From the NCBI GenBank assembly GCA_964016885.1, contig OZ024742.1:353896001-353960000 (forward strand): 64,000 bases of DNA. Direction: 5' to 3'. This document shows, piece after piece, positions 1-49,534 of this stretch; the first letter of the stretch is position 1, and every line of letters begins with the position of its first letter. The notes below the pieces were generated by a model. It ran no database searches, had not been told where the DNA came from, and saw only the letters and a list, made by a program, of their open reading frames with translations. Position numbers and translations under genes: made by a program. Origin of the DNA: Eledone cirrhosa (Eukaryota).

Positions 1-7
1 GAATAAC

Positions 8-10
8 AAC

Positions 11-57
<47 letters not shown>
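8..57. repeat. (AAT)n microsatellite
   Basis: Direct trinucleotide run. Confidence 0.95.
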
Positions 58-1100
58 GCATATTTAAACATATAGAACAAATAGAAACCAGTATATAAAG
101 CACTAAACTTGTGAATATTTTTTATATTTAAATTTTGACATTAATATCTTTCTTCTCTGTGTATATAATCTAAACTATAATAAAGTAAGGAGTCCGGTAC
201 TGCGTCCAGAATATATTTTTGTTATCCCAATTGTAAAATAAGTTAGATTACTTTGAATAAATAATGAGTGAATGGTACATAATTTATTTACTAAATTTAG
301 TTATTCTTGATTAAATATAAATCATGTTGTTGCTTATTTCAAGATATACTTCTTTTAAATGTTGAACACTTCCGTTTGGCGCTCGTTTAAATAACCGTCC
401 ATATATTTCCGTCACTAATTTTCTCCTAATGCAATTTATATATAATATCGTCTTTTTGTAATGTTTCATGGATTACTTTACTGATTACATAAGAGAGTGT
501 AACGCAGTCTTCGTTCAATTTCTCTGTATATTGTAGATTACGATTTTATTTCATTTATCATATCTACATAGATATATACTTCCGTATAATATCAATATGC
601 ACCCTACATATGCTAGCAGAAAAACCACCCGTGAATTTTCTGCTAGCATGTAAAGTTTGCACCTGAAGGTTGGTTTTTCTTCTAGTAATTACACTTATAT
701 CACTAGTTAAACATAAGGCTCAAGATAAAAAAAAAAGAAAAAAAGACACAACTCTTTAGAATTTTGAAAATGGTTATTCTGATATGTTTTATTAATAATT
801 TCAATGATTATTTTACGATTTTCTCTATTTTTCTTAACCTACTCCTTTTTTTCATAATAATATCCTTTTGAATATGGCTTTCTCCAAATTAAATGGATCT
901 TGCTTTTATATATTTATATGTGTTTAAAAAATTAAATAATTTCAAAAAATTGTATGAGAATTTAAAGTGAACATGGTACCGTGAATAGTAAGGTAGGCAC
1001 TCAACGATATATGAAATAATTTGCATTTCTTAGTCTCATAAATGCTGTTGTCAATGATTTATCTCCATTACATTACACACACATTAAAATAGCAACATTA

Positions 1101-1169
1101 ACATACACACATACACACACACACGCACACACACGCACACGTACACACGCACACGCACACACACACACA

Positions 1170-1233
<64 letters not shown>

Positions 1234-1247
1234 AATATATATATATA
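1101..1247. repeat. (CA)n/(CACG)n then (TA)n compound microsatellite, representative of dozens of such tracts in the window
   Basis: Direct reading; it explains the poly-CV/YI/HT ORFs. Confidence 0.95.
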
Positions 1248-1490
1248 GGGCGGGGTTGTGATTGAGTGTTTGGATATCAGTTTACAAACAATAAATATAT
1301 ATATCATATATATATATTCATTTTATTAAGTGTTGTTAATCTGGAGTGTCACCAGTTTATCACAGTGTATTCCGAAAAGAACGCTTATAAGTTGACCCTA
1401 TAAAAAGTCTCACTATTTAACCTTAATAAAATTAAAAATAAAATTCAACTTCGTTGCTGAGAATTCCTATCTCTCAGCCGTCAAGCTATA

Positions 1491-1672
1491 TTGTTTCTAC
1501 TTTTGGCACAAGACCAGACATAACCCAGTGCATTACCGGTACTTTAATTTATGGACCCCGTAAGGATGAAGGGTAAAGTTAACCTCGGCGGGATTTGAAC
1601 TGAGAATGGCAAAGTCCGTAACTCTATGCGTCAAAGCATGGTGTCAGACCCTCTACCGTACAGCCAATCCAT
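1491..1672 (-). mobile_element. tRNA-derived SINE (octopod-type)
   Basis: Reverse complement of the 52558-52741 copy; B-box seen as ggatttgaact. Confidence 0.85.
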
Positions 1673-1828
1673 CAGATATATATATGGGGAATCACAGACA
1701 TATACTGATATCAATTGGGGATGGGGAATATATATGCAGGAGAATTATGTCCTTGTATGGAATGCTCCTACATCCATAATATTTAAGTATATATGAAAGT
1801 CTAAATTTAAATGCCGAGTGTTAATATT

Positions 1829-1935
<107 letters not shown>

Positions 1936-2067
1936 ATACTTTGGGAGGGTCATGTTGCCAATAAGAAACACACGCACAAGCTGCTTTCAATTCAATTTAT
2001 AAATTTAGGAATTTATAAATTTCCGGTTGGTTGGTTGGTTCCACAACCAGATGGTTGTTTATATATT

Positions 2068-2110
2068 GTCAAAGTGCTTTCGTCACACATTATGTGACCT
2101 CTTCAGTGGC
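2068..2110 (-). ncRNA. Minimal type I hammerhead ribozyme, family A pLTR
   Basis: GCCA CUGAAGA G GUCACA-UAAUG-UGUGAC GAAAG-CA-CUU UGAC. Confidence 0.7.
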
Positions 2111-2179
2111 TGGGGATTTGTGCTTTGTGTTTTTAATAGAATAAAGTCATGGTATGATAGCAATAAATAGCAGAGTGTA

Positions 2180-2710
2180 ATGTTCATCGATACAACCCCT
2201 AGTGGCGAATTAACCTACACATATAGAAGGGGCCTAGATAAACATAAACTCAATATTAAGATAGTAGAAAGACCAGGTGCCTCCATAAAAATACTTATTA
2301 GCAAGACATACCCTTTTCAAAGACCTCCCTGTATAGATAAGAAATGTATATTCTGTAAATTAAGCCCCATATTAACTGTAAAACTAGAACTGTAGTATAT
2401 AGCATAAGATGTACTGAAGGACAATGTAGAGATAAACATAGAGTGTACATAGGTGAGAGAGCTCGTAGTATAGGGGAACGGATAAATGAACACTGGCGAG
2501 ACCTTCAAGATAGTAAAGAATCATCTGTACTTTACCAACATGCTAAACTAGAACATAAGGGTAAATTAGAGAACATAGAAATAAAAATAGAATCTACACA
2601 CAGAAAAGACGCAATGTTTAGACAAATCACAGAGGCAATACACATAAATGAATTACAACCAAAATTAAATAGAAAACATGAGTAGAACAGCAACATCACA
2701 ACTTACAATT
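2180..2710 (+). pseudogene. PLE GIY-YIG endonuclease fragment, frameshifted
   Basis: ORFs 2180-2395 and 2443-2685; Cys-rich linker CIDKKCIFCK followed by YIGE motif. Confidence 0.85.
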
Positions 2711-2929
2711 AAGGACAAAATGAAAACACACACGCACATAGAACAAACAACCAACCAGTAACATGTAAATAAACAAATAAATAAACGAATATAAACACAC
2801 ACAGGCCCCTTCTCAATGTGTAAGATAATTCACCACTAGGAGGTTGTATCGATGAACATTACACTCAGGTATTTATTGCTATCATACCATGAGTTTATTA
2901 TATTAAAAAAACAAAGACAAAAATCTCCA

Positions 2930-2972
2930 GCCACTGAAGAGGTCACAGAATGTGTGACGAAAGCATTTTGAC
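2930..2972 (+). ncRNA. Minimal type I hammerhead ribozyme, family A pLTR
   Basis: CTGAAGA 2934-2940; stem II GTCACA/TGTGAC; GAAA; tiny stem III; TGAC. The homologue at 18661-18705 restores stem I as GTCA/TGAC. Confidence 0.7.
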
Positions 2973-3186
2973 TATATATAAACAACCATCTGGTTGTGGA
3001 ACCAACCAACCAACCAACCGGAAATGTATAAGTTCATAGATTTATAAATGTATTATAATAAATTGAAGTGAAACCATCTAGTGCGTGTGTTTCTTATTGG
3101 CATCATGACCCTTCCAAAGTATAACAATATCGGTTTCAACACACGTTTTCAGATAAAGAATCTTGCTAAACAAATTCAGAAACGAA

Positions 3187-3264
<78 letters not shown>

Positions 3265-3267
<3 letters not shown>

Positions 3268-4710
3268 TAATTTAATATAACTACTAACATAAGCGCTCAG
3301 ATGTACGCTAATGCCAGCAAATACACAGGTTATGTCATAGTACCTAGGTGGTCCAATGCAGGAGAATGCAGAACAATAATATAAAAGACGTAAAATAAGA
3401 AAATTTAAAAAAAAAAAATTTTTTTTAAATTTACTTACTTACTTAAATTTTCACTCCAACTAATTAATTTCTGCAATGGGATAAAGACAGTTACGTAATG
3501 AACTGTTGATAATTTCATTGCGTCATCAGGGAGGTCATTCTCAGCCGAGTCTCCAGGCGATGCGCGGACACTGGAGACTCATATAAAAATAATAATAATT
3601 CGGTAAATGGAACAGCTATCGAGGACTGGATTCCAGCTACCGAAAATTCTCACTGCTACTGATCATATGGCCGATTCTAAAGAATCAATCACGTGACACA
3701 GAGGCTAGTCAGTAGGAATGGGATGGTAAGATGACAGGCACCTACTAACACCCCCAAAAAATTTAGAAGTGGTTTTGGCAGGTTTACTCGACAAATCAGT
3801 GATTTGGAGATAAATATAGATAATTTTATATATCTACTAACATAAGCGCACAGATGTACGCTAATGCCAGCAAATACACAGGTTATGTCATAGTACCTAG
3901 GTTGTTTAATGCAGGAGAATGCAGAACAATAATATAAAAGACGTAAAATATTATTATTATTTTTATATGATTCCCCAGTGTCCGCGCATCGCCTGGAGAC
4001 TCGGCTGAGAATGACCTCCCTGATGACGCAATGAAATTCTCAATAGTTCATTACGTAACTGTCTTTATCCCATTGCAGAAACTAATTAGTTGGAGTGAAA
4101 ATTTAAGTAAGTAAATTTAAACAAAATTTTTTTTTTTTTAATTTTCTTATTTTACGTCTTTTATATTATTGTTCTGCATTCTCCTGCATTGAACCACCTA
4201 GGTACTATGACATAACCTGTGTATTTGCTGGCATTAGCGTACATCTGTGCGCTTATGTTAGTAGATATATTAATCATCTATATTTATCTCCAAATCACTG
4301 ATTTGTCGAGCAAACCTGCCAAAACCACTTCTAAATTTTGTTTGGAGGTGTTAGTAGGCGCCTGTCATCTAACCATCCCATTCCTACTGACTAGCCTCTG
4401 TGTCACGTGATTGATTCTTTAGAATCGGCCATATGATCAGTAGCAGTGAGAATTTTCGGTAGCTGGAATTCAGTCCTCGATAGCTGTTCCATTTACTGAA
4501 TTATTATTATTTTTATATGAGTCCCCAGTCTCCGCGCATCGCCCTGAGACTCGGCTGAGAATGACCTCCCTGATGACGCAATGAAATTCTCAACAGTTCA
4601 TTACGTAACTGTCTTTATCCCATTGCAGAAACTAATTAGTTGGAGTGAAAATTTAAGTAAGTAAGTAAATTTTTCAAAAAAATTGTTTACAAAAATGTTC
4701 TTATTTTATG

Positions 4711-4718
<8 letters not shown>
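3265..4718. mobile_element. ORF-less ~550-bp HHR-bearing repeat (family D): 1.25 units on minus, then 1.4 units on plus; retrozyme-like
   Basis: agataatt...ctactaacataagcgc recurs at 3265 and 3819; ttattattatttttatatga recurs at 3951 and 4501; the halves are reverse complements; (TA)n on both flanks. Confidence 0.85.
4010..4052 (+). ncRNA. Minimal HHR-like motif, family D (also 4560-4602 plus, 3497-3539 minus)
   Basis: CTGATGA-C-GCAA-T-GAAA-TTCTC with distal stem I AATGACCT/AGTTCATT; the proximal stem I is imperfect. Confidence 0.5.
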
Positions 4719-4762
<44 letters not shown>

Positions 4763-5738
4763 CGAGAGAGATTGGGAACGAAGGAGAAATACACCTGACC
4801 GTGATGCCAAGCGGTTTCGATATGCGGTATGCAAGTTTTAGCAAGCGTGTACATACATCAAAGCCTTGCTGAGAACACGATATCGTAGTTTATCGTAGGG
4901 GACACATCTGAAATGTGCTACATAGTCAGAAGGAGCCTAGATACGAGTATTTGTAAAGCGTTCTCCTTCTCCACACTGCCTTGTCTGCACCTGTGTATAT
5001 TTACAATCGTTTAAGAAACATCTCATTTTTAACCTTATTTCATTATTTCTATTGTTCTATTTCTATATCTAACCATCTGAATTCATTTCTTACATTAAAT
5101 TCCCCGAGTTGGAATTTATTGTATATTGGCAGCTGGCAACATCCGAATTTATAACAAACTGTGAGTAATTTTCTATTTTCCCGTAATAGGTACGTCATTT
5201 GATTTGTATATATTTCTCTCATATTAACCGCAACATTATTTCCTTTATTTTGTTATATTTTCTTTTGTACCATTTTTGGATTATTATTTTTTCTGTATTC
5301 TCATATTTTTTTCAATTTATCGCTCACTCTCGCATTTCTGCCATTTTTAATCTCCTTCTTTGTATCTCAAGCTCTTTGTATCTCACAACATGATACATAA
5401 ACACGCATGTTTCAGCTAATTACTAATTTTATCTCAATGCTGCATAGTTTATATGTTCAACAAAAGCTCTTTTTCATATTACCTTAGGCAGTTTACGAGA
5501 ACTTATACATCTCTTCTCTCATCTATTATTTGTTTGTCCTCTCATTTCACGTCTGACCCAACTGGAGCATCTGTTACTTCACCATTGCTGAAAGAACACA
5601 TTCCACTATTCAGGCGTTCCATCTATATGCTACATATTTTTTTCTGTATTTCGCCATTCTTTGCTTTAATGTTTACTTTTCTCTATTATTGTCTTCCTAT
5701 AGAGCAATGAGTCATATTGACGTCATCTAAAACTGTAT

Positions 5739-6032
5739 ACATTTTCCTGCTTCCCGATTAAGACTAGCTATATCCAAACCCGACCAAACATTTTCCAGCT
5801 TCCCGATTAAGACTAGCTATATCCAAACCCGACCAAACATTTTCCAGCTTCCCGATTAAGACTAGCTATATCCAAACCCGACCAAACATTTTCCAGCTTC
5901 CCGATTAAGACTAGCTATATCCAAACCCGACCAAACATTTTCCTGCTTCCCGATTAAGACTAGCTATATCCAAACCCGACCAAACATTTTCCAGCTTCCC
6001 GATTAAGACTAGCTATATCCAAACCCGACCAA
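5739..6032. repeat. 49-bp minisatellite, 6 copies
   Basis: Unit acattttccWgcttcccgattaagactagctatatccaaacccgaccaa at 5739, 5788, 5837, 5886, 5935 and 5984. Confidence 0.97.
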
Positions 6033-6880
6033 ACCTTAGTTTCTTCTATGGCAACCGATGGCGGTGCTTTAGAAAGTAATGAAATCTAATCTGATATAAA
6101 TCCTGAAATATAAAAGCATGTCATCTGACTGCTTGCCAAATCACTTCTCAAGTTTCATTGTCAGTTCTATATCCCATTATAACATTACATTTGCCAAACT
6201 AGAAGACTGATGCTATTTGACAAACACCATATTTTATTTCCTTCTTAGGAATCTAATACAGCAATGTTCTCCCATTATAACAATAATTTATTTAAATAAT
6301 TCTCATAAGATATTTGTAATATTAATTCTCTCTAAGATTTTAAGGTGCTGTCTTCTTTATCTTTTGACATGTACATTTATTCCCTTTTCTTCTTATGATT
6401 TGCATGGTTTTATTATTGATATCTTCAGTTTTATACTATTTCTTATCGTCGAGGAGTATACTAATATTTAGTTCAGGATTTAGAAATTGTTAACTTTCAG
6501 CTCGACAAGATATATAACAGAACACGGATCTATTAATGTCCAGGTCTGCAACTAAGATCCACAACAACACTTTGTTAAAGCTACACCTAAAGAAAAGCCT
6601 GTATGTTAACCGTGAATCTATTAGACATCATAGTCAGTCGTGCATCTATATAACAGCATTGTTTATTCAATATATAAGATGTAACTTAGAATATAAACAC
6701 ACTAAATATGACGTTGTGAGAGCTGAAGAATATCTATGAATAATTCTCATCGATGAAATTTGCCATATATTTAAACAGCCACTGCAACAAAAAACAACAT
6801 TGATAATGTCTATAATAACATTATTAAAAATCATATCATTTACTACAAATATAGTTTGAGTATAAATAACACTAATTACA

Positions 6881-7070
6881 GGGCGTGGATTGGAAGTATC
6901 AGTAGAGTGTCGGACACCATACTTTGCATCAAAGAGTTACGGCCTTTTGCAGTCTGAATTCAAATCCCGCAGAGGGTAACTTTGCCTTTCGTCCTAACGG
7001 GGTCGATAAAATAAAGTACCAGTAATACACTGAGATAATTGCTAGCCTTGTGCCAAAAGTAGTAACAATT
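6881..7070 (+). mobile_element. tRNA-derived SINE
   Basis: Same family as 52558-52741; gaattcaaatccc B-box. Confidence 0.85.
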
Positions 7071-7995
7071 CATTGCAGGGCGAACAAATTGTTGCGAACA
7101 AATTGTTGCCACTGGATAATTCAGCTGTCGACATTTGATGTTTTTTAAGCTCCAACGACGTCGGGAAACATAAAATCATCACCACTTTATTTATTATAAG
7201 CGCCTCTCCTGATCAACATTCAGAAATATGAGCAGCAAAGCTCTATTTGATGTTTAACATAAATGGATATCACAAAGGTGCACATAACACATACGTTGAG
7301 AAATATGAAAGGTATATGAATTTCGCTGTGAGGTCCATATAGGCAGTGTTGTATTTTAAACATCTGCTATAAATTAAAATCAACATGCAGATATTCGTGT
7401 CGATATCTTTTTACCAAACTTCTATGATTGTAACTTATTTGATAAGATAGCGTAAAACATTTCTACAATTGCATTAAATCACCTAAAACGATCTCTTCGC
7501 AATGTATAAAATGTTTGACTTAAGGTGACGGACATCGCTGCAGCTAACATGACATTATAAATGATACATTTTACCTGTATCTAAATTCGGCTAGAAACAC
7601 CGTATTGCAAACTTACGATGGGGATTTATGTGGTGTAGCTAAAAATGGCAGTATTCTAAATGCAATATATAAATGTCGAAGACAGAAAATTATCAATTGT
7701 TACGATTATTTAAGAGGAAATGAATTTGAAAAATTTCATTACGAAGCATGAAGAAGTATATGACCGGTGATAAATGTATGACATAACAAGGGAAAGGTAG
7801 AAATATTGATCAGAAGAATCTGCGGCAAAAGCCTCGTCTAAGAATATAGTAAATACATTGGTAGAATTATGTATTCCTAGAAATACGTGTAATGTCTCTT
7901 ATATGTGAAGTTGACGATAGCTTATGGGAATTTTACATAGAAATGTGTTACATGGGGGGGGGGGTCACGAGTGCACACTATTCATGTATTTGAGA

Positions 7996-8380
7996 CTATT
8001 CAACAGTATTCGTAATATAATCGGCTTGTCTCCCAACAGCCCCGGAGGACAGAATAGCGAAGGCGATTCCTCGGAGGAAGGCAAGGGAGACGCGCTGGAA
8101 AAGCCACACCACCTCGTGGGGATCACACCTGTGGCTGGCCAGCTCAGCGCCTATGGTGGTGAGTAGGGAGGTAGCCCTAGGGCCGAGGACACCAGAAGTC
8201 TCCACAGCCAAGTGTACGACCGGAAATCTGTCGGAGAGCGACCGGTATTTGAGGAGTGTCCTCCTCAGCTCGATGTGCAGCAGAACCTGGGTTAGTCGCA
8301 GACTGCTCCAGGTTGCCGCTGCAGAAGGTGTCGGTGCAAGTGGTATCCCAGACGAAGGGTTTGCCCCACCGGAGCCTCTA
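7996..8380 (-). pseudogene. 3' fragment of a CRE-like non-LTR retrotransposon (restriction-like endonuclease C-terminus)
   Basis: KYRSL..FPVVHLAVETSGVLG...IGAEL...DP...LFQRVSLAFLRGIAFAIL matches the KY...AVET.G..G...QR.S.A.QRGNA pattern; GC-rich island. Confidence 0.75.
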
Positions 8381-8757
8381 TGTAATATTCTGACCATCAG
8401 ATTTCATCCATAGTTGTATAATGCAGTATATCGTACTAAATATTTTATCTGATTAATCGTGATGTCATCAGAAAATAGAGAAACTGACATTTAGTGGTAA
8501 CTGGTATTAACATGGAAGAGGGCAAGTCAGAATTGACGTTAAAATATACAAATATGACAATGTATATAGCAACACAGATAATAATGTTGAATTCACCTCA
8601 CATCACTATAGAAGCATAAGCAGTCAATAAAGGATAAAACCTTTCCCTATGGAATGTAACTGGACTTCAATTTGACGTAATGCCAATGCAAATCCCTTTC
8701 CTTTCACGTAATGCATATAAGGAATGAACAAAGCAATTATGGATAATAGCTGTGTGT

Positions 8758-9570
8758 ATCCAGGGTGTTTCAGAAATCGCGATAGATTTTAACCACGGTC
8801 TATTGTATTATATATATAAGACACTTAACACTATAACGTCATATTATTCGCTGGCCATAGAGATTCGTGTGTTTAGTAGAATTTACATATCACTTTTGTC
8901 TATTCATGACAAAAGGGCAATGCGGTATTGTTATAACTAAGAGAAGTACAAAGGTTCTTGTGCTAATATAACAGACAAACACATCCCAAATAACACTCAA
9001 TAAATTTTACAAAATTTTGAAAACATTTGGTAATATTGAACTAATGTAAACGGAAACATTGTTGATGTGTGAATTTTCAGCATTCCCAGGTTTTTAAGTA
9101 GCTGTGACCGTACATCCTACTCTCACTTTATACTCCATATAATATTCAGGAATTTCTCGAATGTAAAGTGATATGTTTCATAGCTCATATTCCGATAGAC
9201 ACACTCCTTTAAAGCGCTGTCATGAACACATTCTAATCATTTATTAGGAAATATGAAAACCATCATGTGATGAATTTCGCAAATAAATTTACCACGTGTA
9301 AACATTTAGATTTAAAATTTAAAAAAAATAATTCGGCACGGAGTTGGTTACGTGCAGGTTTAAGCCCCCCGATCAGGAATGGTTATTCTAAACATCATCC
9401 GGGAAAAGGCCTTCTCTATTCTATACAGATAAGTATAGACATTTCGTATTTCTAATGAAATACCGTCTGTTTATAGGCATGTTAACGGTATGATGTTTGC
9501 ATAGCTACGGCTTTCAAAATGTTTAATTGTAAACATATCGCGTTTTCTTAGAAATACAAAATTTCTATAC
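8758..9570 (+). mobile_element. Possible very old Tc1/mariner-superfamily remnant
   Basis: cagggtgttt TIR-like start and faint HTH and P.SP.L-like traces; no clean ORF or second TIR confirmed. Confidence 0.25.
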
Positions 9571-9866
9571 ATATCAGTTATGCATGTGGCTAAATCCTAA
9601 TTGTATTCTATTATGTGTTGAGTAAGCTTATGCAGCTTCATACGCAAATGACATTAATCACCTCGGTTACATAGGTGACAAAACTATATATTCTCGCCTG
9701 TTTTCAAGTCTAGCAGTTGCAAGTGTGATGAAGATCTGTTAAGTACGAAATGCATCGACGATTGTGCCCCTTGCTTCTGCTGGACACCACCAGAGTGCGT
9801 CAGCTCCGGTGCTTTATGCATAGGTACGGCTTTCTAAATGCTTACCTGTAAACATACCTCTGTATA

Positions 9867-9972
<106 letters not shown>

Positions 9973-10299
9973 TGTGTGTGTGTGTGTGTGTGTGTGCGTG
10001 TGTGGGTGTCGGATGGTAGCTGAGATGCTTCCATAGGCGGTATACCGGTTGAGTACTCTATGCTCTTACAGAGCAGAGTATGTTATAAAATAAAACAAAC
10101 AACCAGTAATGCCCCTGAACTCAGTTTATTGTGTGTTACAATTCTTTCGCCGGCGGACAGCTCGAGACACGATCATTGTGTGGATCCGTTTGATTCTAAA
10201 CCCGCAGTTTCGACGGACACCTCTAATGATTTCAGAGTTGTCCCCCGGCGAACAATAAATTGAGTTCAGTTGCATCACTGATTTTTCATTCTATATTAA

Positions 10300-10334
<35 letters not shown>

Positions 10335-10413
10335 ATATTTAAAGAAAAAGAGATGAAATCGAAAATGCAACTGGAGTCTTATTTTTTTTTTAAATATATA
10401 TATTTATTTGGTT

Positions 10414-10451
10414 CCTTTACCGGTTTCGCAGTTCTTCTGCTTTTCAAAAGG
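10414..10451 (-). ncRNA. Minimal type I HHR, U3-A8 core variant
   Basis: CCUU UUGAAAA GCAG-AAGAA-CUGC GAAAC-CG-GUA AAGG; palindromic stem III ACCGGU. Confidence 0.8.
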
Positions 10452-10473
10452 TGAGTTGAGATGGAGGGTCTGT

Positions 10474-10545
<72 letters not shown>

Positions 10546-10559
10546 TTTTAATATAGATG

Positions 10560-10611
10560 AGATTCTACAGGACTAGAAACTGTTTCACTTTTTAGAAATC
10601 ATCAGGAATCT
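10560..10611 (-). ncRNA. Type I HHR in an inverted pLTR-like segment
   Basis: AGAUUC CUGAUGA (weak stem II) GAAACAG-loop-CUGUA GAAUCU; stem I 6 bp, stem III 4 bp. Confidence 0.75.
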
Positions 10612-10765
10612 AGCTGTCCAAAATAAATGTTGTGGTATTTATATATTTTCATGTGGTAGAAGAGGGTGGGGAGTGTGATGGGTGGAGGTCATTGGTTGAA
10701 AGAAAAGGGAATTCATTAAAAGCTACTTCTTTAAGGCTATCATTTATATTTGGAGGGACAAAGGA

Positions 10766-11946
10766 ATGGGAGTGAGTGACTCGGCTGAAATAAGCGACCT
10801 TGTGGGCATCTACATTTTACATCACCTGAAAAACATCTTTACTGGTAACCGGAGGTTTATACAGTGACGGCGGCCTCTTTGCCCTGCACAAGGTTACCAC
10901 CAGCACCACCATTGGTTTTCTGAGAGACTTAAGCTCATTCTTTCGTAATCTAGGATTTAGTATAACTATAGAATCTAATATTACTAGGGCCAACTATTTA
11001 GATGTCACTCTCGACCTAGATACTCCTTTCTATTACCCGTACCACAAACCCAATGAGTCCCTTAGATATATTAATGTTAATTCTAACTAGCCCCAAAACA
11101 TCACTGATAACTTAGTAAAAAGCGTCTCTATTAAAATCTCTGGCCTCTCGGCCAATGGAGATATATTTAGCGCCTTCGCCTCCCACTACAATGAAGCCCT
11201 CGCCCGCAGCAGATTTAAAGAAAAGATAACCTACCTAGAAACCACCGCAAGACCGCATAGGAGGAATAGTCATAGGCAGATTAGCAGCTACTACCCTCCC
11301 TTCAATAGAGAGGTCTCTAAACCTATAGCTAGGATTTTCTTCACTTTGCTGAACACACACTTCCCCATACAATATAGGTACTACACCATCTTTAATAAGA
11401 ACACAATAAGACTCTCCTACTCCACTACATCTAACCTAGCTAGGATTATAGCCAATCACGATTCTAAAAAATTAAATAAGCCAACCATCTCCGAACCCAA
11501 TACCGGGACTGAGACCTTGTGTAATTGCCTAAATAAGGAAGCCTGCCCACTTGAAAACAAATGCCTGACAAATGATATCGTATACAAATGCGATGTCATC
11601 TCAGGCACCGATGATTGCAACAACAAAAAGACTTACATCGGCATGACTTCCCATAATGCTTAAGACCCGGTGCTATGCCCACACCCACTCCTTCAGGAGA
11701 CCTGACAAATCAAAACAGACAACACTCACCTCCTTTGTTTGGGACCTCAAAATGAACTCCACCCACTTCACGCTTAAATGGAAAATACTCCAGGAAGCGG
11801 GCTCATACAACGGAGGACACAAGTGCTGCGACCTTTGTATCTCAGAGAGCTACGAAATATTATTCGCCCAGGGCCCGCTACTGAAAAACTCGCTGAACAC
11901 TGCCCGAACTGCATACACAAAAATGTGCAACTTTCAAATAACTTAA
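10766..11946 (+). pseudogene. 5'-truncated PLE (Naiad-like lineage): RT C-terminus plus GIY-YIG, decayed
   Basis: MGVSDSAEISDLVG; GGLYSDGGL (decayed YRDD); CNCLNKEACPLENKCL..IVYKC; YIGMT; CDLC; frameshifts. Confidence 0.88.
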
Positions 11947-12374
11947 GCCAGTGTAAATGCCCGATGGCTAAAAACCACATTCCCTTTCTTTCTTTTCTTC
12001 TTTTGTTAACGCCACCCGACAAAATAGCCCCTCTACCTCCTTTCCACCCCACCCCTACGCCTTCTCAACCTGAAACACCGCACTATGGTTATGTATGTAC
12101 CTCTTACCTATCTGCATTTTCTGCTTGTAGAGCTGTTTTTGTGTGACCGTGTATATGTATATATTTATAAGTACATGTGTGTATGTATTTGTATGAGTGG
12201 CCGTTCGTTTGTATGCGTATCGGTGTGTGTACCTGCGGTCATATGTACCTGCATATTGGTATGTATGTGTATGTTTGTGTGTATATATATATATACACAC
12301 ATATATATATATGTGTGTGTATATATACATATATATATATATATGTATATATACACACATATATATAAATATGA

Positions 12375-14076: not shown

Positions 14077-14227
14077 CCATGCTTTCTAGCATAGTTACGT
14101 CCCTTTACAGTCTGAGTTCAAATCCCGCCTAGGTTAACTTTGCCTTTCATCCTTATGGGGTCGATAAATTAAAGTACCAGTAATATACTGGGTAATTGGT
14201 GGCCTTGTGCCTAAAGTAGAAACAATT
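14077..14227 (+). mobile_element. 5'-truncated tRNA-derived SINE
   Basis: gagttcaaatcccgcc...ttgtgcctaaagtagaaacaat. Confidence 0.85.
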
Positions 14228-14574
14228 ATTACACTATAAAAGTTATTCCTATGTTTCTCTCTCTCTGTGATCAACTCTCTTTTGTTTTCTAGGCTCCTAC
14301 TAGCTATATTAGCTCCTCATCTGATTATTTTTCTTTGCCTTTCTTTTCTTTCCTCTTTCTTCAGTAATTTCAATTATTAGAATTTTTAACAGTTATATTG
14401 CTGCCATATATTTTTTAAGCTTTGTCACACGCACCCTCTCTATCATATGTATTATGTGTAGTTTTTTCATGTTTCAATATTTTTAGGTATATAAATATTG
14501 AGTTTTGTCATATTTTCCTCACTACCATGACTGAATCTTAACCATCTACTATGTCAGGGTATGTCATGCATTAT

Positions 14575-14859: not shown

Positions 14860-15576
14860 CGTACAAACATATACGCTTACATACATACATGCATGCATAC
14901 ATACATACCTACACTTATGTATAATATTTTATCAACTCGTATTCTAAATCTAATTCCGTCTAATAAATTTGATTCTATTTAATGAATGTAAATTTACAAA
15001 CTAAATATCCTCTTCAAGTTATCCAATAAAACCTACTTATCTAATAATTCTAATAGAAAAAAAATGAGATTATTACAGGATACATTTCTATATATCCCTT
15101 CAGAAATTATGGCATTGCTTTATTTTTTTCTCTTTTCAACGCATAGATTTATATTTGTAATTACTGCGTTTATATATCACTAATATCGACTTTCCTATCT
15201 CCAGCTTCGATGTTTAAGTCCACAATTCTATTCCAGCAATCTTTAATTAAATATATTCTAGCTACTTGTATACACATATTTTAGATTGTTGATATGTAGT
15301 TTAAAACGTCAGCTTTAACATATAAAAGGGATTTATTGTATTTTATGGTAACAAAATTGAATCCAAATAATGTTTGAGGATCGAGAGAGGAAAATTAATA
15401 CATTAAACAATATGTTGTACAACATTGCTTTCCTCATGTGATGATATTGTTTTATTTTTAACTTAGTCTGTATTATATTGAAATTAATACTGCAATATAA
15501 ACTAATGAATTCACTTGCAATTGTTACACATTTTCCTGCATATATACGTGTATTAATCTTGATATATATATATATT

Positions 15577-16590
15577 TAGAAGATCACGTTAAGGGTGAAA
15601 GCAGCGATTCTTTGCTTAAACTTTAATCTGTTGTTTTAATAATATATATATATATATATAGTAATAATAATAAATTTGAAGACTAACATCGAAAGAGTGC
15701 TCGACAAGTATACATATATATCAATATATAAGAAGCGTAGAGCAAATATTTATTAAAATAACAGATTAAAGTTTAAGCAAAGAATCGCTGCTTTCACCCG
15801 TAACGGGATCTTCTGAAACTAATAAAGTCAATCTGTAAACGCAGAAGTCGATATTTCAAAAAACCTTGCAACCGGAGAAAGACAGGAAAACGATACTTTG
15901 GTTCTTGGAAACGTTCCCTGGCAAAGAACGGGAAAGAACGAATATAATACGTTATATATTTGGAGCGGTGAAAAACAATTACACGCACAGACAAAACCGC
16001 GTCTATGGTATAAAAGAAGTTGTAGACTATTAGGTAGCTCATAGGGACGTTCTCTGGCAATGAACGGAAAAAAGAAAGATAATACGTCATATGTGAAGCG
16101 TGGAGAACAATAGCACGCAAAGACAAAACCACGTAAATGGTATAACTGAAGTCGTAGACTAAAATTCTAAGTAGATAACCGAATGATTCTCGGCTACAGA
16201 GTTAAGAAGAAAGTAAATGAAATACAGAGGTAATTGAAATTAAATAAATACATACACGCATCCATATACGTACATACACAAGCATACTCGAACACACTCG
16301 CCATAGGTATACAAGTACACGCACATATAAATATGTTAGTGTGTACACAAATAATTAAATAAACGTATATAAATAAATAAATACGTATATAACAAGCGCA
16401 CACACATACCTACATGTAAATACACATATGTTCGGAGACGTATGTCAACCAAAACACAGCCGACATACGTACGAACCCGCATACACACACAGACGCAAAA
16501 CTCACGTATGCACATAGTTTCAGAAGATCCCGTTAAGGGTGAAAGCAGCGATTCTTTGCTTAATCTTTAATCTGTTATTTTAATATATAT
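15577..16590 (-). mobile_element. ORF-less HHR-bearing element, family B: long copy 15661-16515 on minus, with short inverted copies at both ends
   Basis: Reverse complement of 19192-20035; internal ~140-bp tandem duplication; (TA)n flanks. Confidence 0.85.
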
Positions 16591-16605
16591 ATATATATAT
16601 ATATG

Positions 16606-18838
16606 TCGTTTCTGAATTTGTTTAGCAAGATTTTTTTATCTGAAAACGTGTGCTGAAACCGATATTGTTATACTTTGAGAGGGTTATGTTGCAATAAAAA
16701 ACACACGCACCAGTTGCTTTCGCTTCACTTTATTATAATAAATTTATAAATTTAGGAATTTATAAATTTCCGGTTGGTCGGTTGGTTCCACAACCAGATG
16801 GCTATTTACAAACTGCATAATATGTAGTATGGATGTTGTGTCCCTGTATTCATCTATTGGCGTGGATTTTGCTGTGGAGAAATGCTTAGAAATGATCAGT
16901 GAGAGCAATGTTGAATTCCATGGGATTGGTACCAGTGAGCTGGGATTCCTACTTAAAATTACCTACAGTAATAATTATCTAGACACATCTGACCTTAGCA
17001 ACCTGTGCCCTACAAGACCGGCAAGAGGCAGATCACCTACCATTACCTCAATGGCCAAGAAAACCCACACAGATAGATCGAACGGGTGGACCAGAGACAT
17101 ACGGACCCCCGAAAACCACGATGAAGTAAAGAAAATGATTGCACATGCGGTGGGGGCCAGCATAAAATTAACCCTTAAGGAACATATGTTCGAATGTAAT
17201 GGAAAAACATATCCCCAAGAGGAGGGAGCAGCTCTTTGTTTTAGCATTGCAGGCGACATAGTTAACCTATTCATGGTATGGTGGGACAGTAGACTTAAAC
17301 TTAAACTTAACGAACAATTAGAAGACCCCTTAACCCTGATAGTGTACTCCTGCTACGTTGATGATATAAACATCGTAGTTAAAACACCCCTACTAGAGAA
17401 CAGTCAGGAATTAGAGAAAAACACAATGGAAAGCATCCAGCAAGTAGCTCACTCCATCCACCAGAGTATTAGAGTTACTATAGACTACTAAACCAAATAC
17501 CACAACCATCGATTACCAGTACTAGACACAGAGCTCTGGTTCCTCCATTCCCATTATGCCAAACCTATGACTTCCAAATATCTAATCTACCGAAACTCAG
17601 ATGATTCGGACCATACCAAAATCAACATACTGATTGCGGATTTGGTATGGGTGATGAGAAACGTGTCCTGCATGTGCAACCCCTAAAAACTAGAGATACA
17701 CATATAACACTTCATCCACCGTATTCAGTTCTCTGGTTACAATCAGAGAGATAACATCACAGTATATAGAGGAGCCAGAACGAAATGGGGAAAAAATGGT
17801 AAATAATGACACAAATGGGCCCTGCCCCTTGTATAGATGCACATTTTGGAATAGAATAGTAAGAACTAGGAGTAAGGCTAATAGAATAAACTCATGGTAT
17901 GATAGCAATAAATACCAGAGTGTAATGTTCATCGATACAACTTCTAGAGGTGAATTAGCTTACAAATTTAGAAGGGGCCTAGATAAACATGAACTCAATA
18001 TTATACGGTAGTAGAAAGACCAGGTACCTCAATAAAATCACTTATTAGCAATACATACCCTTTTCAAGACCTCTCTGTATAGATAAGAAATGTATAATCT
18101 GTAAATTAAGCCCCATATTAACTGTAAAACTAGAAATGTAGTATATAGCATATGATGTACTGAGGGACAATGTAGAGAAAAAAATGTAGTGTACATAGGT
18201 GAGACAGCTCGTAGTATAGTTGAACGGATAAATGAACACTGGCGAGACCTTCAAGATAGTAAAGAACAATCTGTACTCTACCAACATGCTAAAATAGAAC
18301 ATAAGGGTAAATTAGAGAACATAGAAATAAAAATAGAATCTACACACAGAAAATACGCAATGTTTAGACAAATCACAGAGGCAATAAACATAAATGAATT
18401 ACAACCAAAATTAAATAGAAAACATGAGTGGAACAGCAACATCACAACTTACAATTAAGGACAAAATGAAAACACACACGCACATAGAACAAACAACCAA
18501 CCAGTAACATGTAAATAAACAAATAAATAAACGAATATAAACACACACACAGACACCCGGATGTAACACATGCACAAACTAAACACACAACACACACACA
18601 ACCAAAATATGGCGTAGGACAGAACAAAGGAGAGGCACAAAAACAAAGAAAAGAATTCTCAGTCACTGAAGAGATCACCGACTGTGTGACAAAAGAAATT
18701 TGACAACATATAAACAACCTTCTGGTTGTGGAACCAACCAACCAACCAACCGGAAATTTATAAATTTATTATAATAAATTGAAGTGAAAGCAACTGGTCC
18801 GTGTGTTTCTTATTGGCAACATGACCCTCCCAAAGTAT

Positions 18839-18842
<4 letters not shown>
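16606..18842 (+). mobile_element. PLE family A, 5'-truncated, with inverted 5' pLTR
   Basis: 16606-16800 is inverted relative to the 3' pLTR (18715-18840 and 2985-3188); RT and GIY-YIG lie between; degenerate HHR at 18661-18705. Confidence 0.9.
16829..18458 (+). pseudogene. PLE reverse transcriptase plus GIY-YIG, disrupted
   Basis: DVVSLYSSI; YPQEEGAALCFSIAGDIVNLFM; CYVDDI; LPVLD; YIGETARSIVERINEH. Confidence 0.9.
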
Positions 18843-18883
<41 letters not shown>

Positions 18884-18888
<5 letters not shown>

Positions 18889-20030
18889 TAAAATAACAGA
18901 TTAAAGTTTAAGCAAATAATCGCTGCTTTCACCCTCAACGGGATCTTCTGAAACTAACAAAGTCAATCTGTAAACTCAGAAGTGTATATTTCATAAAATG
19001 TTGCAACCGGAGGAAGACAGAAGACGATACTTTGGTTCGTGGAAACGTTCCCTGTCAAAGAACAGGAAAAACGAATATAATACGTCATTAATATGAGCGG
19101 CGAAAAACAATTACGCGCAAAGACAGAACCACGTTTATGGTATAAAAGAAGTCGTAGACTAATGTTCTCTTAGGTGGTTTATAGAGACGCAGGTTCGTAC
19201 GTATGTAGGGTGCGTGTATATGTGTACTTCATGTTTTGGTTCACGTGCTTCCGTACATTTGTCTATTTACATGTAGGCATGTGTGCGCTTGTTATATATG
19301 TATTTATTTATTTATATACGTTTATTTAATTATTTATTTATTTGTATACACGCACACACACATACACATATTAATATGTGCGTGGTTTTGTATAACTATG
19401 GCAAATGTTTTCCCGTATGTTTGTGTATGTACGTATTTGCATGCGTGTATGTATTTATATAATTTCTATAACCTTTGTAGTGTATTTCATTTACTTTATT
19501 CTTAACTCTGAAGCGTAGATTCATTCGGTTTCCTAGTTAGAATTTTAGTCTACGACTTCAGCTATACAGTTTACGTGGTTTTGTTTTTGCGTGCAATTGT
19601 TCTCCACGCTCCACATATGACATATTATCTTCGATTTTCCGTTAATTGCGAGAGAACGTCCCTATGAACCACATAATATAACATTAGTCTAAACGTGGTT
19701 CTGTCTTTGCGCGTAATTGTTTTGCACCGCTCCTATTAATGACGTATTATATTCGTTTTGCCCGTTCTTTGCCAGGGGACGTCACCACGAACCAAAGTAT
19801 CGTCTTGCTGTCTTCCTCCGGTTGCAACGTTTTTTGAAATATCCACTTCTGCGTTTATAGATTGACTTTGTTAGTTTCAGAAGATCCCGTTACGGGTGAA
19901 AGCAGCGATTCTTTGCTTAAACTTTAAACTGTTATTTTAATAAATATTTGCTCTACGGTTCTTATATATTTGATATATATTTATCCTAATCGAGCCCTCT
20001 TTGGATTTTCTTCTTAAAATGTATTATTAT

Positions 20031-20035
<5 letters not shown>
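18884..20035 (+). mobile_element. ORF-less HHR-bearing element, family B, with ~300-bp inverted 5' arm
   Basis: 18884-19190 is the reverse complement of about 19690-19947; (TA)n on both sides. Confidence 0.87.
19859..19930 (+). ncRNA. Type I HHR fold with CAGAAGA (U4A) core, family B (also 15763-15834 minus, 16516-16573 plus, 18898-18969 minus)
   Basis: AGTTT CAGAAGA T-CCCG-TTA-CGGG-T GAA AGCAG-CGATTCT-TTGCT T AAACT; extended distal stem I. Confidence 0.7.
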
Positions 20036-20764: not shown

Positions 20765-21487
20765 CATTATGAAGAGAGAAGAAACATTTAGATATAATTA
20801 GTAATAAAATGTATCATACCTAAACTGCTCCTAAATTCCTCGACTACGCAGTTTCGTGGCATAAACAAAAACAATATATCATAAAGATATAGAGTCCTTG
20901 CGAGGTCTGCCGACCTATCAAGAGGATACCTCATTTTACTAGTCTCAAGAACGCGTCTACACGACGTGAGAAAGAATCCCAAAAGGCGGATGGGGAGATA
21001 GTCACGCGATATAACGGTCGAGAAACAGAGCTAAGCCTCTTATAACCCCGAAGAAAATACCACGGAGGCGGAGGGGGTATTTATATCGAGGCCGTAGAAG
21101 AGGTGGTGAAGAAGGCGAGAAGTATGAGTAATGGAAGCTTTCCAGCTGTTCCCACACTTCAAAGATTGCTCCCCCTCCGCCTCCGTGGTATTTTCTTGGG
21201 GGTTATAAGAGGCTTAGCTCTGTTTCTCGACAGTTATATCGCGTGACTATCTCCCCCTCCGCCTTTTGGGATTCTTTCTCACGTCGTGTAGACGCGTTCT
21301 TGAGACTAGTAAAATGAGGTATCCTCTTGATAGGTCGGCAGACCTCGCAAGGACTCTATATCTTTATGATATATTGTTTTTGTTTATGCCACGAAACTAC
21401 GTAGTCGAGGAATTTAGGAGCAGTTTAGGAATGATACATTTTATTACTAATTATATCTAAATGTTTCTTCTCTCTTCATAATGTATT
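20761..21487. mobile_element. ORF-less fold-back element: ~320-bp inverted arms, one HHR per arm
   Basis: 20761-21077 versus 21171-21487 are near-identical reverse complements; (TA)n on the left. Confidence 0.9.
21322..21411 (+). ncRNA. Type I HHR, UUGAUAG core variant (mirror copy 20837-20926 minus)
   Basis: TCCTC TTGATAG GTCGGCA...TGCCAC GAAAC-TACGTA-GTC GAGGA; palindromic stem III ACTACGTAGT. Confidence 0.72.
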
Positions 21488-22834: not shown

Positions 22835-23673
22835 TATCGAACGTATGGATGTGTAAGTGTGCGTGTGTATATAAGCATGTCTATTTTTGCGTTTCCTTTG
22901 TGAGATATGCGTGTCTGTGTATGTATGTACCCTTTTTTGTCTTTTTTTCTTTAATTTTTTCTTTCTAATTTTTTTCATTCTAAATTATTGTTCCATTTTT
23001 ATAAATATATCGAGATTGATACTTTCCTTTAATTGTTACACTCGCTTACCTCTTTTACTTCCGCATCTAAGTGTATGTGTATGTAGGTGTGTTTATGCGC
23101 CCGCCTTCATATTCTTATGATGTATCTATTCTGTCTGTAGATTACAGACATACAGATACATTTGCCCTAAATTATACATTTACGCACACTTTTTCACTAT
23201 ACGTATACATATGTGCATACACATATATGCACATCTGTGAGCGTATATACATACATATACACACACCTAACTATATTTCTTGAAAGATTATTATATATTT
23301 CATATTCTAATTCATTTGTCTATATTTTTTTTTGATTTTCTTGACGAGACTTTCCAAGTATTTACCCATGTTTTATATTGCCTCGTGTGACGAACGAATG
23401 AAGACGTTTCTTTCGTATTCGCCTCATTCGGGAAACCTCTGGGAATGAGGTAATTATATTGTATTGATTTTTATACATTAAATGTTGCTCTGATACTTAC
23501 ATAGAGCACTCTTCACTTCTATGACCTTATCTGTTTTCAACGGAAATTTCAATACTTATACAGCTCCCAAGGGAATGATCGCAGCATATTCTACATCTTT
23601 ATGAGATTGGCACTTTCCAGCCCTTTTAAATTCGAGCACTCTTCAGTCATAGGATTTTAAACCAATACTGAAC

Positions 23674-28912: not shown

Positions 28913-29736
28913 ATAAAATATTTTAAAAATGATGAATAAAACAATGAACCAGTTCCTTATATTAAACAAAAAAAGTTCACTATTTAACGATCGTTTCTAG
29001 GATATATATGTGTTAGAATTGGCATGCATATTCAACAGATCTATGTACAAAATTATACAAAATTATACAAACTATCAAAATTAAATATACATACCAAACA
29101 CATATATATGCCGTCTTCAGAAATAATGAAATATATTTATTGATAATAACAACAATTCCAAATTACAGGTCTGTTTGGGAACAGAGTTCAAATTGACCAA
29201 TGAAAATACAAAAAGTTTATACAGTTAGGTGTGTGTATATATATGTGTGTAAGTAACTTCGTTCAGAGATATGCATAAAGATATATGTTCACATGCATAC
29301 GCATGCCAAAAAGATATATGTAAATACACAAATTCAAGGCTAATGTCTCTGTATGTTTATAATCTACAGATAAAATACGTATACACATATAAATATAAAA
29401 TAAATATATACACACATTCATATACTCACACATATACGTACATTCACACACACACGCGCGTATACGCATAAACATACACACAACCACGAACATACATACA
29501 CACATACACCCCCACACACATATATATGTGTATATACTATTATCATAAGCATATGGACATTAATGCGCGCACATAAACACTGCCACACATATTTAGATCC
29601 AGATACAGAAAGTAGGTGGGGGGTGGGGAGAAGAGGTCAGTACTCACCGGTGTCTGCAGACTGCCTATTTATAAATGTATCTATAAACTTAGAAATAAAA
29701 AGAAAAGAAAAAGAAAAAAAGAAATATATCAAGGAA

Positions 29737-29819
<83 letters not shown>

Positions 29820-30114
29820 AACAAGTAAAATATAAAATATACATCGATATACATACATATACATATATATATATATATACACATACACACATATACATAC
29901 ATATACATACACATATACACAAACACATACATACACATACATATACATACACACACCATATAAATACACATACACATACACACACGCATACATATAGAGA
30001 CACATACATATACACATATAAGTACATAGACATATACACATATACACACACATATATATATATATATATATACACATACACGCATACATATATATATATA
30101 CATTCACAACACAC

Positions 30115-30193
<79 letters not shown>

Positions 30194-30266
30194 CACACAC
30201 ATATCTACACACATATATAAACACACTCATGTATATACACACATACACATACATACCCACATATAA

Positions 30267-30301
<35 letters not shown>

Positions 30302-30307
30302 TACACA

Positions 30308-30365
<58 letters not shown>

Positions 30366-30443
30366 TATATATATACACACACACGTACACACACATACAC
30401 ATACACATATTTAAAGATATATATACACACACACACACATATA

Positions 30444-30496
<53 letters not shown>

Positions 30497-30796
30497 CATA
30501 TATACACACACATACATACTCATACATAGACATACATATATACTCACACACACATACACACATACATATACGCATATATACACATACATACACATCCAAG
30601 TATGCGTATATACATACAAACACCACCACACGCTCACACAACTCAGACATACATAGATAAAGGGATATGCATACAGATATATACATATATAAATAGAGAT
30701 ACATATACATATATAAATATATACACACGTACACACACAAACACACATACATACACATACATACACACATACATATATATACACACACATACACAC

Positions 30797-30871
<75 letters not shown>

Positions 30872-31023
30872 CATATATATAAACAAATAAAGAAATAAGA
30901 TAAATAAATAAATAAATTAATTAATACACACAGTCAGACAAATATGCACACACATACATATACATATATATATATACATACACATATATATATACATATA
31001 TATATATATACATACACACATAC

Positions 31024-31054
<31 letters not shown>

Positions 31055-31071
31055 TCAACTACAAATATATA

Positions 31072-31148
<77 letters not shown>

Positions 31149-32022: not shown

Positions 32023-32068
<46 letters not shown>

Positions 32069-35000: not shown

Positions 35001-35241
35001 ATTGAAAGAGCTCAACTAAATGTATATGGGTTTACAAAATCATACATATATGTGTATATACATAAATATAAATTTAACACACACATACAGTACAAAAATA
35101 CGAATATTTCCGTGAAAATAGGAGCAAAATTATGTAGATAAATCTACCAAGAGTTTACGGTAGTGTCCAATCCGTATGAAGAACTCAATGTAATCCGGAT
35201 ATCATGGAAAGAAGAGATGCAATGAAAAATCACTTTCGGTG

Positions 35242-35243: not shown

Positions 35244-35338
<95 letters not shown>

Positions 35339-35380
35339 TATATGTATGTATGTCGATGTATATTTTATATTTTACCTGTT

Positions 35381-35429
<49 letters not shown>

Positions 35430-35454
35430 ATATTTATTTTATATTTATATTTAT

Positions 35455-40959
<5,505 letters not shown>

Positions 40960-49529: not shown

Positions 49530-49534
<5 letters not shown>

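What the first reader, a model, noticed from the sequence alone, without database searches (positions are those of the whole stretch)
3265..4718. Circularly permuted 550-nt HHR repeat on both strands: footprint of a reverse-transcribed circular RNA (retrozyme-like)
Seen: an ORF-less unit runs 1.25 times on the minus strand (period ~554), then flips and runs 1.4 times on the plus strand (period exactly 550). The two arms start and stop at different points of the same circular sequence. One CUGAUGA...GAAA motif occurs per unit (3497-3539 minus, 4010-4052, 4560-4602) and the block sits in (TA)n. Established: metazoan non-LTR retrozymes are HHR-carrying tandem repeats that make circRNAs and are thought to borrow PLE machinery. 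Inference: an RT went more than once round a ~550-nt circle and then switched strand. This would be a cephalopod-type retrozyme family that I do not recognise.
Basis: partly seen in the sequence, partly recalled or inferred. Interest (0 to 1): 0.82.

Follow-up and report, generated by a model that had tools for sequence, protein, structure and literature searches.

The report
Hammerhead retrozyme with Penelope-type insertion
A 550-letter non-coding repeat carrying a predicted self-cutting hammerhead RNA sits here as two back-to-back arms whose ends match those of neighbouring Penelope-type retrotransposons, so it was likely pasted in by their enzymes, probably by copying a small RNA circle.

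Summary
The architecture is real: 1.25 turns of a 550-nt ORF-less unit on the minus strand, then 1.4 turns on plus, inside (TA)n. Each of the three copies holds a complete predicted type I hammerhead, but not the one described. The first GAAA lies in loop II; the ribozyme closes on a second GAAA (4078-4081), with a 6-bp helix II, a palindromic helix III and a predicted cut after GUU at 4091. The two plus-arm cuts would release exactly 550 nt. The unit folds strongly on the ribozyme strand, and the family is abundant and heterogeneous in public runs of three coded organisms. The unequal outer ends are not random permutation: 6 of 8 other inverted blocks in this window show the same short end plus 60-137-nt tail joined to (TA)n, and both arms here end at TATAT microhomology. 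Neither arm nests in the other, which excludes a simple fold-back strand switch; two target-primed cDNAs fit. Both arms run through the cut site, which fits a circle, an uncleaved multimer or template jumps. Verdict: a new non-LTR retrozyme family whose insertion bears Penelope-like hallmarks. Cleavage, circRNA and the partner enzyme are untested.

The parts
3187..3269 (.). left (TA)n target tract, shared with the long end of the neighbouring PLE-type block
   Evidence: TRF; ends shown
3266..3950 (-). minus arm, about 1.25 turns (circle 199 to 338 of the next turn); its outer end joins (TA)n through TATAT shared with the unit
3266..3383 (-). 118-nt tail by which the minus arm runs beyond the plus arm's end; folds into a long hairpin
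3454..3533 (-). type I hammerhead copy 3 (C15.2 changed to U, leaving a U-G pair in helix III); predicted cut after 3458
3949..3951 (.). head-to-head junction of the two arms, 1-nt overlap
3950..4720 (+). plus arm, about 1.4 turns (220-nt partial copy plus one unit); its short end joins (TA)n through TATAT
4016..4095 (+). type I hammerhead copy 1: helix I 4016-19/4092-95, core 4020-26, C.A mismatch 4027/4077, helix II 4028-33/4071-76 with a 37-nt insert holding an inner hairpin, GAAA 4078-81, palindromic helix III 4081-90, predicted cut after GUU 4091
4092..4641 (+). 550-nt monomer that the two predicted cuts would release (putative circle)
   Evidence: inferred
4566..4645 (+). type I hammerhead copy 2; predicted cut after 4641
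4716..4761 (.). right (TA)n target tract
   Evidence: TRF
1932..3186 (.). context, not part of the element: adjacent PLE-type remnant with inverted arms, endonuclease fragment 2359-2685, its own hammerhead-like motifs (2934+, 2106-) and a tail of about 60 nt

Best explanation
This is a non-coding 550-nt tandem element with a predicted type I hammerhead ribozyme in every copy (a non-LTR retrozyme), likely inserted in one event by the reverse transcriptase and endonuclease of a Penelope-like element, probably copying a ribozyme-made RNA circle from both ends of a cut (TA)n target. Shown by sequence: the unit, the three complete motifs, the two arms, the short end plus 118-nt tail, the TATAT joins and the common origin of all copies. 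Inferred: a tandem transcript is cut after GUU at each hammerhead, probably best as a dimer because helix III is a 10-nt palindrome. The 550-nt monomer is ligated to a circle in which helix I is predicted to be sequestered. The 3' end of each target strand anneals to a TA-like stretch 75 or 192 nt downstream of the cut site and primes cDNA that runs more than once round. The two cDNAs are then joined head to head.
For: Hammerhead: helices I 4 bp, II 6 bp, III palindromic in 3 of 3 copies; chance 4 of 20000 shuffled units. Local fold probabilities are 0.98-0.99 for helix I and 0.94-1.0 for helix II; the active fold lies 3.0-5.4 kcal/mol above the ensemble. Among the 40 best-supported variant rows from public runs, none falls in the 43 positions of core and helices (about 0.03 by hand). 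Those inside the motif fall in loop II (4036, 4042, 4049) or keep a pair (4044), and the common 4015A allele adds a fifth pair to helix I (read by hand). Circular folding z is -5.2 and -11.6 on the ribozyme strand against -1.1 and -6.7 on the other; 2 of 36 control tiles fall below -5. GC is 0.37. The family is abundant and heterogeneous: 926 contigs laid in X1 and 7202 reads in X21; it is also in organisms B and D, with the sequence continuing across my arbitrary cut in X5, X7 and X21. PLE-type insertion: short and long ends in 6 of 8 control blocks, tails 60-137 nt against 118 here; in block C the tail equals the leader upstream of the ORF. The same hallmarks are described for PLEs (PMC8557442). 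One event: private differences 2/3/3 in 168 columns and 1/4/3 in 115; both arms share alleles rare in the family at 4361, 4433 and 4437.
Against: No cleavage or circRNA was observed. The motif departs from the textbook form (GUU triplet, C.A at the base of helix II, 37-nt loop II insert), and helix III is weak as a monomer (probability 0.00-0.24). In the one in vitro test I read on tandem elements, 8 of 9 predicted Xenopus retrozyme dimers did not cleave (bioRxiv 10.64898/2026.07.22.740005). A model built from 12 window motifs scores it only 8.4 bits (E 0.77 in the 1.5-kb search; absent at E<=10 in the whole window). No similarity to any PLE end in the window was found, so the partner is unidentified. 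62 variant rows were not shown. In the minus-arm fold, 7 of 21 paired variant sites break a pair and 14 keep it. One locus cannot tell a circle from an uncleaved multimer or template jumps.
Confidence: 0.6

Rival explanations
1. Same element and same PLE enzyme, but the template was linear: an uncleaved read-through transcript of a tandem donor of at least 1.6 units, or a cleaved monomer copied with end-to-end template jumps. No circle is needed.
For: A linear RNA spanning circle 1 to 888 could template both arms. In long transcripts helix I is predicted to be sequestered (probability 0.01), so cleavage may be slow. The same tail pattern occurs in ORF-bearing blocks, where a circle is also unproven. 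The 2026 preprint suggests local tandem amplification from PLE ends.
Against: Neither arm of this insertion reaches 1.6 units, so such donors would erode unless tandem length is regenerated (inference). Conserved ribozyme positions and strand-biased folding fit a cleaved, structured monomer.
Confidence: 0.27
2. The unit is only the terminal region of an autonomous PLE, and this locus is a rearranged ORF-less remnant rather than a self-propagating family.
For: The ribozyme lies at the position of PLE hammerheads relative to the ends (cut to short end 75 nt here, against 49-139 nt in controls). The segment 4437-4499 varies most between runs and could be an internal deletion junction.
Against: The circle is collinear across that segment or its neighbours in X5, X7 and X21, and the share of laid X1 contigs running on into unlike sequence is 0 (the contigs are short). 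There is no ORF and no match to window PLE ends.
Confidence: 0.07
3. One reading: one RT went round the circle, then folded back and copied its own cDNA to make the inverted arm.
For: Both arms come from one template lineage and meet with a 1-nt overlap.
Against: The second arm would have to be a sub-interval of the first; 1-770 and 199-888 do not nest in any phase. Each arm has its own TATAT join to the target.
Confidence: 0.03
4. A DNA-level satellite or Helitron-derived array fragment, inverted by repair, with a chance or dead ribozyme motif.
For: Tandem organisation; (TA)n tracts are fragile sites (general knowledge, not tested here).
Against: The full descriptor is rare by chance. The family is heterogeneous rather than homogenised (identity bands 242/274/268/142 in X1). 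The ends mirror neighbouring PLE-type blocks.
Confidence: 0.03

Closest known systems
Metazoan non-LTR retrozymes (Cervera and de la Pena 2020, PMC7229834; Li et al. 2026 preprint 10.64898/2026.07.22.740005)
   Same: Non-coding tandem repeat, one type I hammerhead per unit, GC below 45%, highly self-paired, co-existing with PLEs. A blocked ribozyme in the predicted circle resembles what the 2020 paper notes for some mussel circles.
   Different: The 550-nt monomer is longer than the 170-400-nt circles studied in 2020, though within the 51-972 bp of the 2026 survey. Helix II has a branched 37-nt insert and the triplet is GUU. In the parts I read, neither paper describes an inverted arm, a tail or (TA)n joins for a retrozyme insertion; their supplements were not readable.
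Penelope-like elements (EN+ PLEs) and their minimal hammerheads (PMC4209133; PMC8557442)
   Same: Partial tandem, adjacent inverted 5'-truncated copy, tail at one end, (TA)n target, palindromic helix III, short helix I, long helix II, hammerheads on opposite strands a few hundred bases apart.
   Different: No RT or endonuclease ORF. The tail is 118 nt against the 30-40 bp quoted, though other blocks in this window have 60-137 nt. Helix III has 3 pairs.
Non-autonomous Chlamys PLEs such as MRC1 (PMC8557442, passages)
   Same: ORF-less elements with pLTRs and head-to-tail insertions, thought to be moved by a PLE.
   Different: Those are in green algae, the clade mostly lacks hammerheads, and they share 3' ends with their partners; no such shared end was found here.

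Membership tests
non-LTR retrozyme | type I hammerhead (core plus helices I-III) in each unit | tested here: met
   3 of 3 copies pass the descriptor; 4 of 20000 shuffles do. Structure prediction only.
non-LTR retrozyme | [quoted passage not shown] | tested here: met
   4016-4095 and 4566-4645, cuts 550 nt apart
non-LTR retrozyme | non-coding, low GC, highly self-paired monomer | tested here: met
   longest ATG ORF 51 aa; GC 0.37; z -5.2 and -11.6
non-LTR retrozyme | multi-copy family in the genome | tested here: met
   926 contigs and 7202 reads laid from organism A, 22 and 3 contigs from B and D. The window's own genome is not held, so it is not shown that A is the window's species.
non-LTR retrozyme | self-cleavage in vitro | not testable with these tools
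   needs a transcription assay
non-LTR retrozyme | expressed as circular RNA | not testable with these tools
   needs RNase R or 2D gel work; no RNA run was laid
non-LTR retrozyme | no LTR, primer-binding site or polypurine tract | not tested
   only a tRNA scan was run (0 genes in 1-12000)
hammerhead, loop I-loop II tertiary contact | conserved interacting loop nucleotides of canonical type I motifs | not tested
   loop II is a 37-nt branched insert; the contact was not modelled
autonomous PLE | RT plus GIY-YIG ORF between the repeats | tested here: not met
   no ORF in the unit
PLE-type insertion | partial tandem, inverted 5'-truncated arm, one-sided tail, microsatellite target | tested here: met
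   against the description in PMC8557442
non-autonomous PLE derivative | sequence shared with the pLTR or 3' end of an autonomous PLE | tested here: inconclusive
   none in this 64-kb window; the genome is not available

The most novel reading that the evidence does not exclude
This locus is a frozen record of a Penelope RT copying a ribozyme-made 550-nt RNA circle from both ends of a (TA)n cut, each cDNA running through the ligation site for more than one turn. The family is a conserved, probably cephalopod, circRNA whose hammerhead works only as a dimer, paired through the palindromic helix III and possibly a second palindrome (4051-4058) in the loop II insert. It would be direct structural evidence that animal retrozymes parasitise PLEs, and an ORF-free substrate with which to solve how PLEs make tandem, inverted and tailed insertions.
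Probability: 0.35. Interest if true: 0.72.

Novelty: new member of a known kind. Interest (0 to 1): 0.55.

Why it matters
The papers I read propose that PLEs move animal retrozymes on grounds of co-occurrence, shared ribozymes and pLTR homology, and call the mechanism unresolved; they also call the origin of PLE tandem, inverted and tailed insertions undefined. Here an ORF-less hammerhead repeat carries all of those insertion marks beside several PLE-type blocks that serve as controls. A 550-nt substrate with two mapped priming sites makes the circle-versus-linear template question testable by a genome survey and a small in vitro assay. The ribozyme's branched helix II also escapes short-spacer descriptors and Rfam, so such families may be undercounted.

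Tried and rejected
1. My first descriptors capped the CUGANGA-GAAA spacer near 40 nt, used the first GAAA and led me to reject the ribozyme (notes 32, 51). A covariance model from 12 window motifs pointed to the second GAAA, and I reversed that view. A type III reading on the first GAAA (7-bp stem, AUG triplet, helix I 0 bp) is rejected. 2. Rfam: 0 hits at gathering score in the window, no ribozyme at E<=10 in 1700-4900, 0 hits in 3950-4700. It also misses the PLE-type motif at 57241, so these blanks say little. 3. HDV-like, twister and hairpin readings were tried by eye and not supported. 4. The read ends in X21 (4035, 4087, 4272, 4337, 4425) lie at or next to AATT sites and look like library cut sites, so I did not use them as element ends. 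I laid 4 of 23 listed runs. 6. One metagenome match, L001, shares only 22 nt and is taken as chance; 0 matches in viral contigs. 7. No earlier finding of this scan matched by sequence, genome or relatives. 8. bZIP-like DNA motifs as the reason for the conserved core: 9 of 16 window matches lie in the unit, but 6 of 100 shuffles reach 16, and CpG content is ordinary (0.81 against 0.87). 9. Of 8 control blocks, D could not be resolved and G showed equal ends by eye and was left out. 10. Control folding covered 36 of 54 tiles, 10 shuffles each, owing to the time limit. 11. Pfam named 1 of 12 window ORFs, weakly (RVT_1); the PLE and GIY-YIG labels of the others are recalled from motifs.

Full report
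Observation. With window 3950-4499 as a 550-nt circle, the minus arm runs from 3950 to about 3260 and covers circle 199 to 338 of the next turn; the plus arm runs from 3950 to about 4720 and covers circle 1 to 220 of the next turn. The arms are about 95% alike and meet with a 1-nt overlap. (TA)n flanks both sides. The longest ATG ORF is 51 aa and GC is 0.37. No other copy lies in the window, and no genome is held.

The ribozyme. I first rejected the ribozyme on that basis. A covariance model built from 12 hammerhead-like motifs elsewhere in the window aligned the same CUGAUGA to a second GAAA 52 nt downstream, at a weak 8.4 bits. That reading gives a complete type I motif: helix I 4016-19 with 4092-95; core 4020-26; a C.A mismatch at 4027/4077; helix II 4028-33 with 4071-76, enclosing a 37-nt insert with its own hairpin; GAAA 4078-81; a self-complementary 10-nt helix III region 4081-90; and a predicted cut after GUU at 4091. 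It hit 4 of 20000 shuffled units and gave 0 hits in 40 shuffled windows. The descriptor was set after the motif was seen. In the isolated motif helices I and II form with probability 0.94-1.0 and helix III with 0.00-0.12; the palindrome pairs with itself at -9.0 kcal/mol; the active fold costs 3.0-5.4 kcal/mol locally and 7.0 in the circle, where helix I has probability 0.0. The two plus-arm cuts would release 550 nt (4092-4641). Rfam finds nothing but also misses the PLE-type motif at 57241.

The family. Of 23 runs listed, 20 hold part of the unit; I laid 4. Organism A gave 926 contigs (identity bands 242/274/268/142) and 7202 reads; organisms B and D gave 22 and 3 contigs. X5, X7 and X21 continue from the end of my monomer into its start; the T tract 4112-4154 was skipped by the tool. 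Of 40 variant rows shown (62 hidden), none lies in the 43 core and helix positions (about 0.03 by hand, 507 searchable positions). Variants within the motif fall in loop II (4036, 4042, 4049) or keep a pair (4044), and the majority allele 4015A adds a fifth pair to helix I (by hand). Circular folding gives z -5.2 and -11.6 on the ribozyme strand and -1.1 and -6.7 on the other (25 shuffles; linear z -5.6 with 100 shuffles); 2 of 36 control tiles fall below -5. In the minus-arm fold 14 of 21 confidently paired variant sites keep their pair and 7 break it, which is modest support only. The read ends in X21 look like AATT cut sites and say nothing on element ends, so whether ends are fixed genome-wide is open.

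The insertion. Private differences are spread evenly over the copies (2/3/3 in 168 columns; 1/4/3 in 115), apart from 11 clustered in one T tract. Both arms share alleles that are rare in the family: at 4437 the other letter makes up all X1 depth and 712 of 835 X21 reads; 4361 and 4433 are similar. This points to one event from one template lineage. Both outer ends stop where the unit reads TATAT and pass into (TA)n, as expected if target 3' ends primed cDNA there. The minus arm exceeds the plus arm by 118 nt. Among 8 other inverted blocks examined, 6 show the same short end plus tail (A 72 including some TA-like flank, H 63, E 60, B 88, C 137, F 100); D was unresolved, and G had equal ends by eye. 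Three insertions of family A share the same two ends, and in block C the tail matches the leader upstream of the ORF (40802-40919 against 35248-35131). Partial tandem, adjacent inverted truncated copy, one-sided tail and (TA)n bias are the PLE hallmarks described in PMC8557442 (passages). The RT of family A has a weak RVT_1 hit, and its best homologue is an Octopus vulgaris protein at 63%; the host is therefore probably a cephalopod, by inference only. The PLE labels of blocks B and C rest on recalled motifs.

Mechanism. A fold-back by one RT requires one arm to nest in the other; 1-770 and 199-888 do not nest in any phase. Two target-primed cDNAs joined head to head fit better (the likeness to L1 twin priming is recalled). 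Priming lies 75 and 192 nt downstream of a predicted cut, and the arms cross the cut site twice and once. A cleaved linear monomer could not template that without jumps, so the template was a circle, an uncleaved multimer of at least 1.6 units, or a monomer copied with jumps. I favour the circle (0.6 for the whole chain) because the ribozyme looks conserved and the monomer is strongly self-paired with the ribozyme predicted to be blocked. One locus cannot settle it, and 8 of 9 predicted Xenopus retrozyme dimers did not cleave in vitro.

Comparison. The element meets the sequence criteria of non-LTR retrozymes; cleavage and circRNA are untested. The circle-to-tandem model and PLE mobilisation are already proposed in PMC4209133 (read parts 1-2 of 4), PMC7229834 (passages and sections 14 and 17; supplement unreadable) and the 2026 preprint (parts 1-3 of 5 and a term search; supplements closed). 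PMC13282606 (passages) lists active PLEs in Octopus vulgaris and has no occurrence of 'ribozyme'. In nine searches of the held library (listings only for papers not named above) I found no cephalopod retrozyme and no description of a retrozyme insertion with inverted arm and tail. The library lacks most subscription papers, and unseen supplements may hold such cases.

Verdict. A new retrozyme family with an atypical, easily missed hammerhead, caught in an insertion with the full set of PLE marks. The kind is known; the value lies in making the mobilisation mechanism testable. Interest 0.55.

Noticed in passing
window 14585+, 21845-, 27043+, 27317-, 42273-, 49189-, 52023+, 52971-, 57241+, 2934+, 2106-, 6723+, 18666+, 23375-23453+: At least a dozen hammerhead-like motifs of several families in 64 kb, most with a short palindromic helix III; none reached an Rfam threshold.
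   Followed up: partly
window 28913-40916: A young 12-kb inverted PLE-type block (arms 97-99.5% alike) whose 137-nt tail matches the leader upstream of its ORF; it carries a long TA/CA microsatellite inside both arms and showed no clear hammerhead core in its last 900 nt.
   Followed up: partly
window 1932-3186, 16583-18888, 51285-51747: Three inverted insertions of one PLE-type family with the same short end and the same tail of about 60 nt; the tail is on the right in one and on the left in two.
   Followed up: yes
window 4051-4058 (also 4601-4608, 3491-3498): An 8-nt palindrome lies mostly in the loop of the hairpin inside helix II; it could form a kissing loop that helps dimer formation (speculation).
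   Followed up: no
window 20901-21450: A tile with extreme folding (z about -30, -388 kcal/mol), probably a long near-perfect inverted repeat.
   Followed up: no
window 1486-1671, 6885-7070, 14077-14229, 47045-47230, 47884-48249, 52559-52743: A dispersed repeat of about 185 nt with at least seven copies at 70-92% identity, SINE-like in size.
   Followed up: no
window 15575-20033, 44226-44371, 49530-49745: A second dispersed family with nested inverted pieces beside (TA)n; the 15951 tile folds at z -8.6.
   Followed up: no
window 5739-6034: Six copies of a 49-bp minisatellite, 98% alike.
   Followed up: no
window 43535-43873 and 7996-8403: ORF fragments that recall a Tc1/mariner transposase and the endonuclease end of a non-LTR element; labels from memory, no Pfam hit.
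   Followed up: no
window 4056-4101: The 3' half of the hammerhead has the highest summed depth in X1 and X5, and two X5 contigs join other sequence upstream of 4056-4057, hinting at other families that share this half.
   Followed up: no
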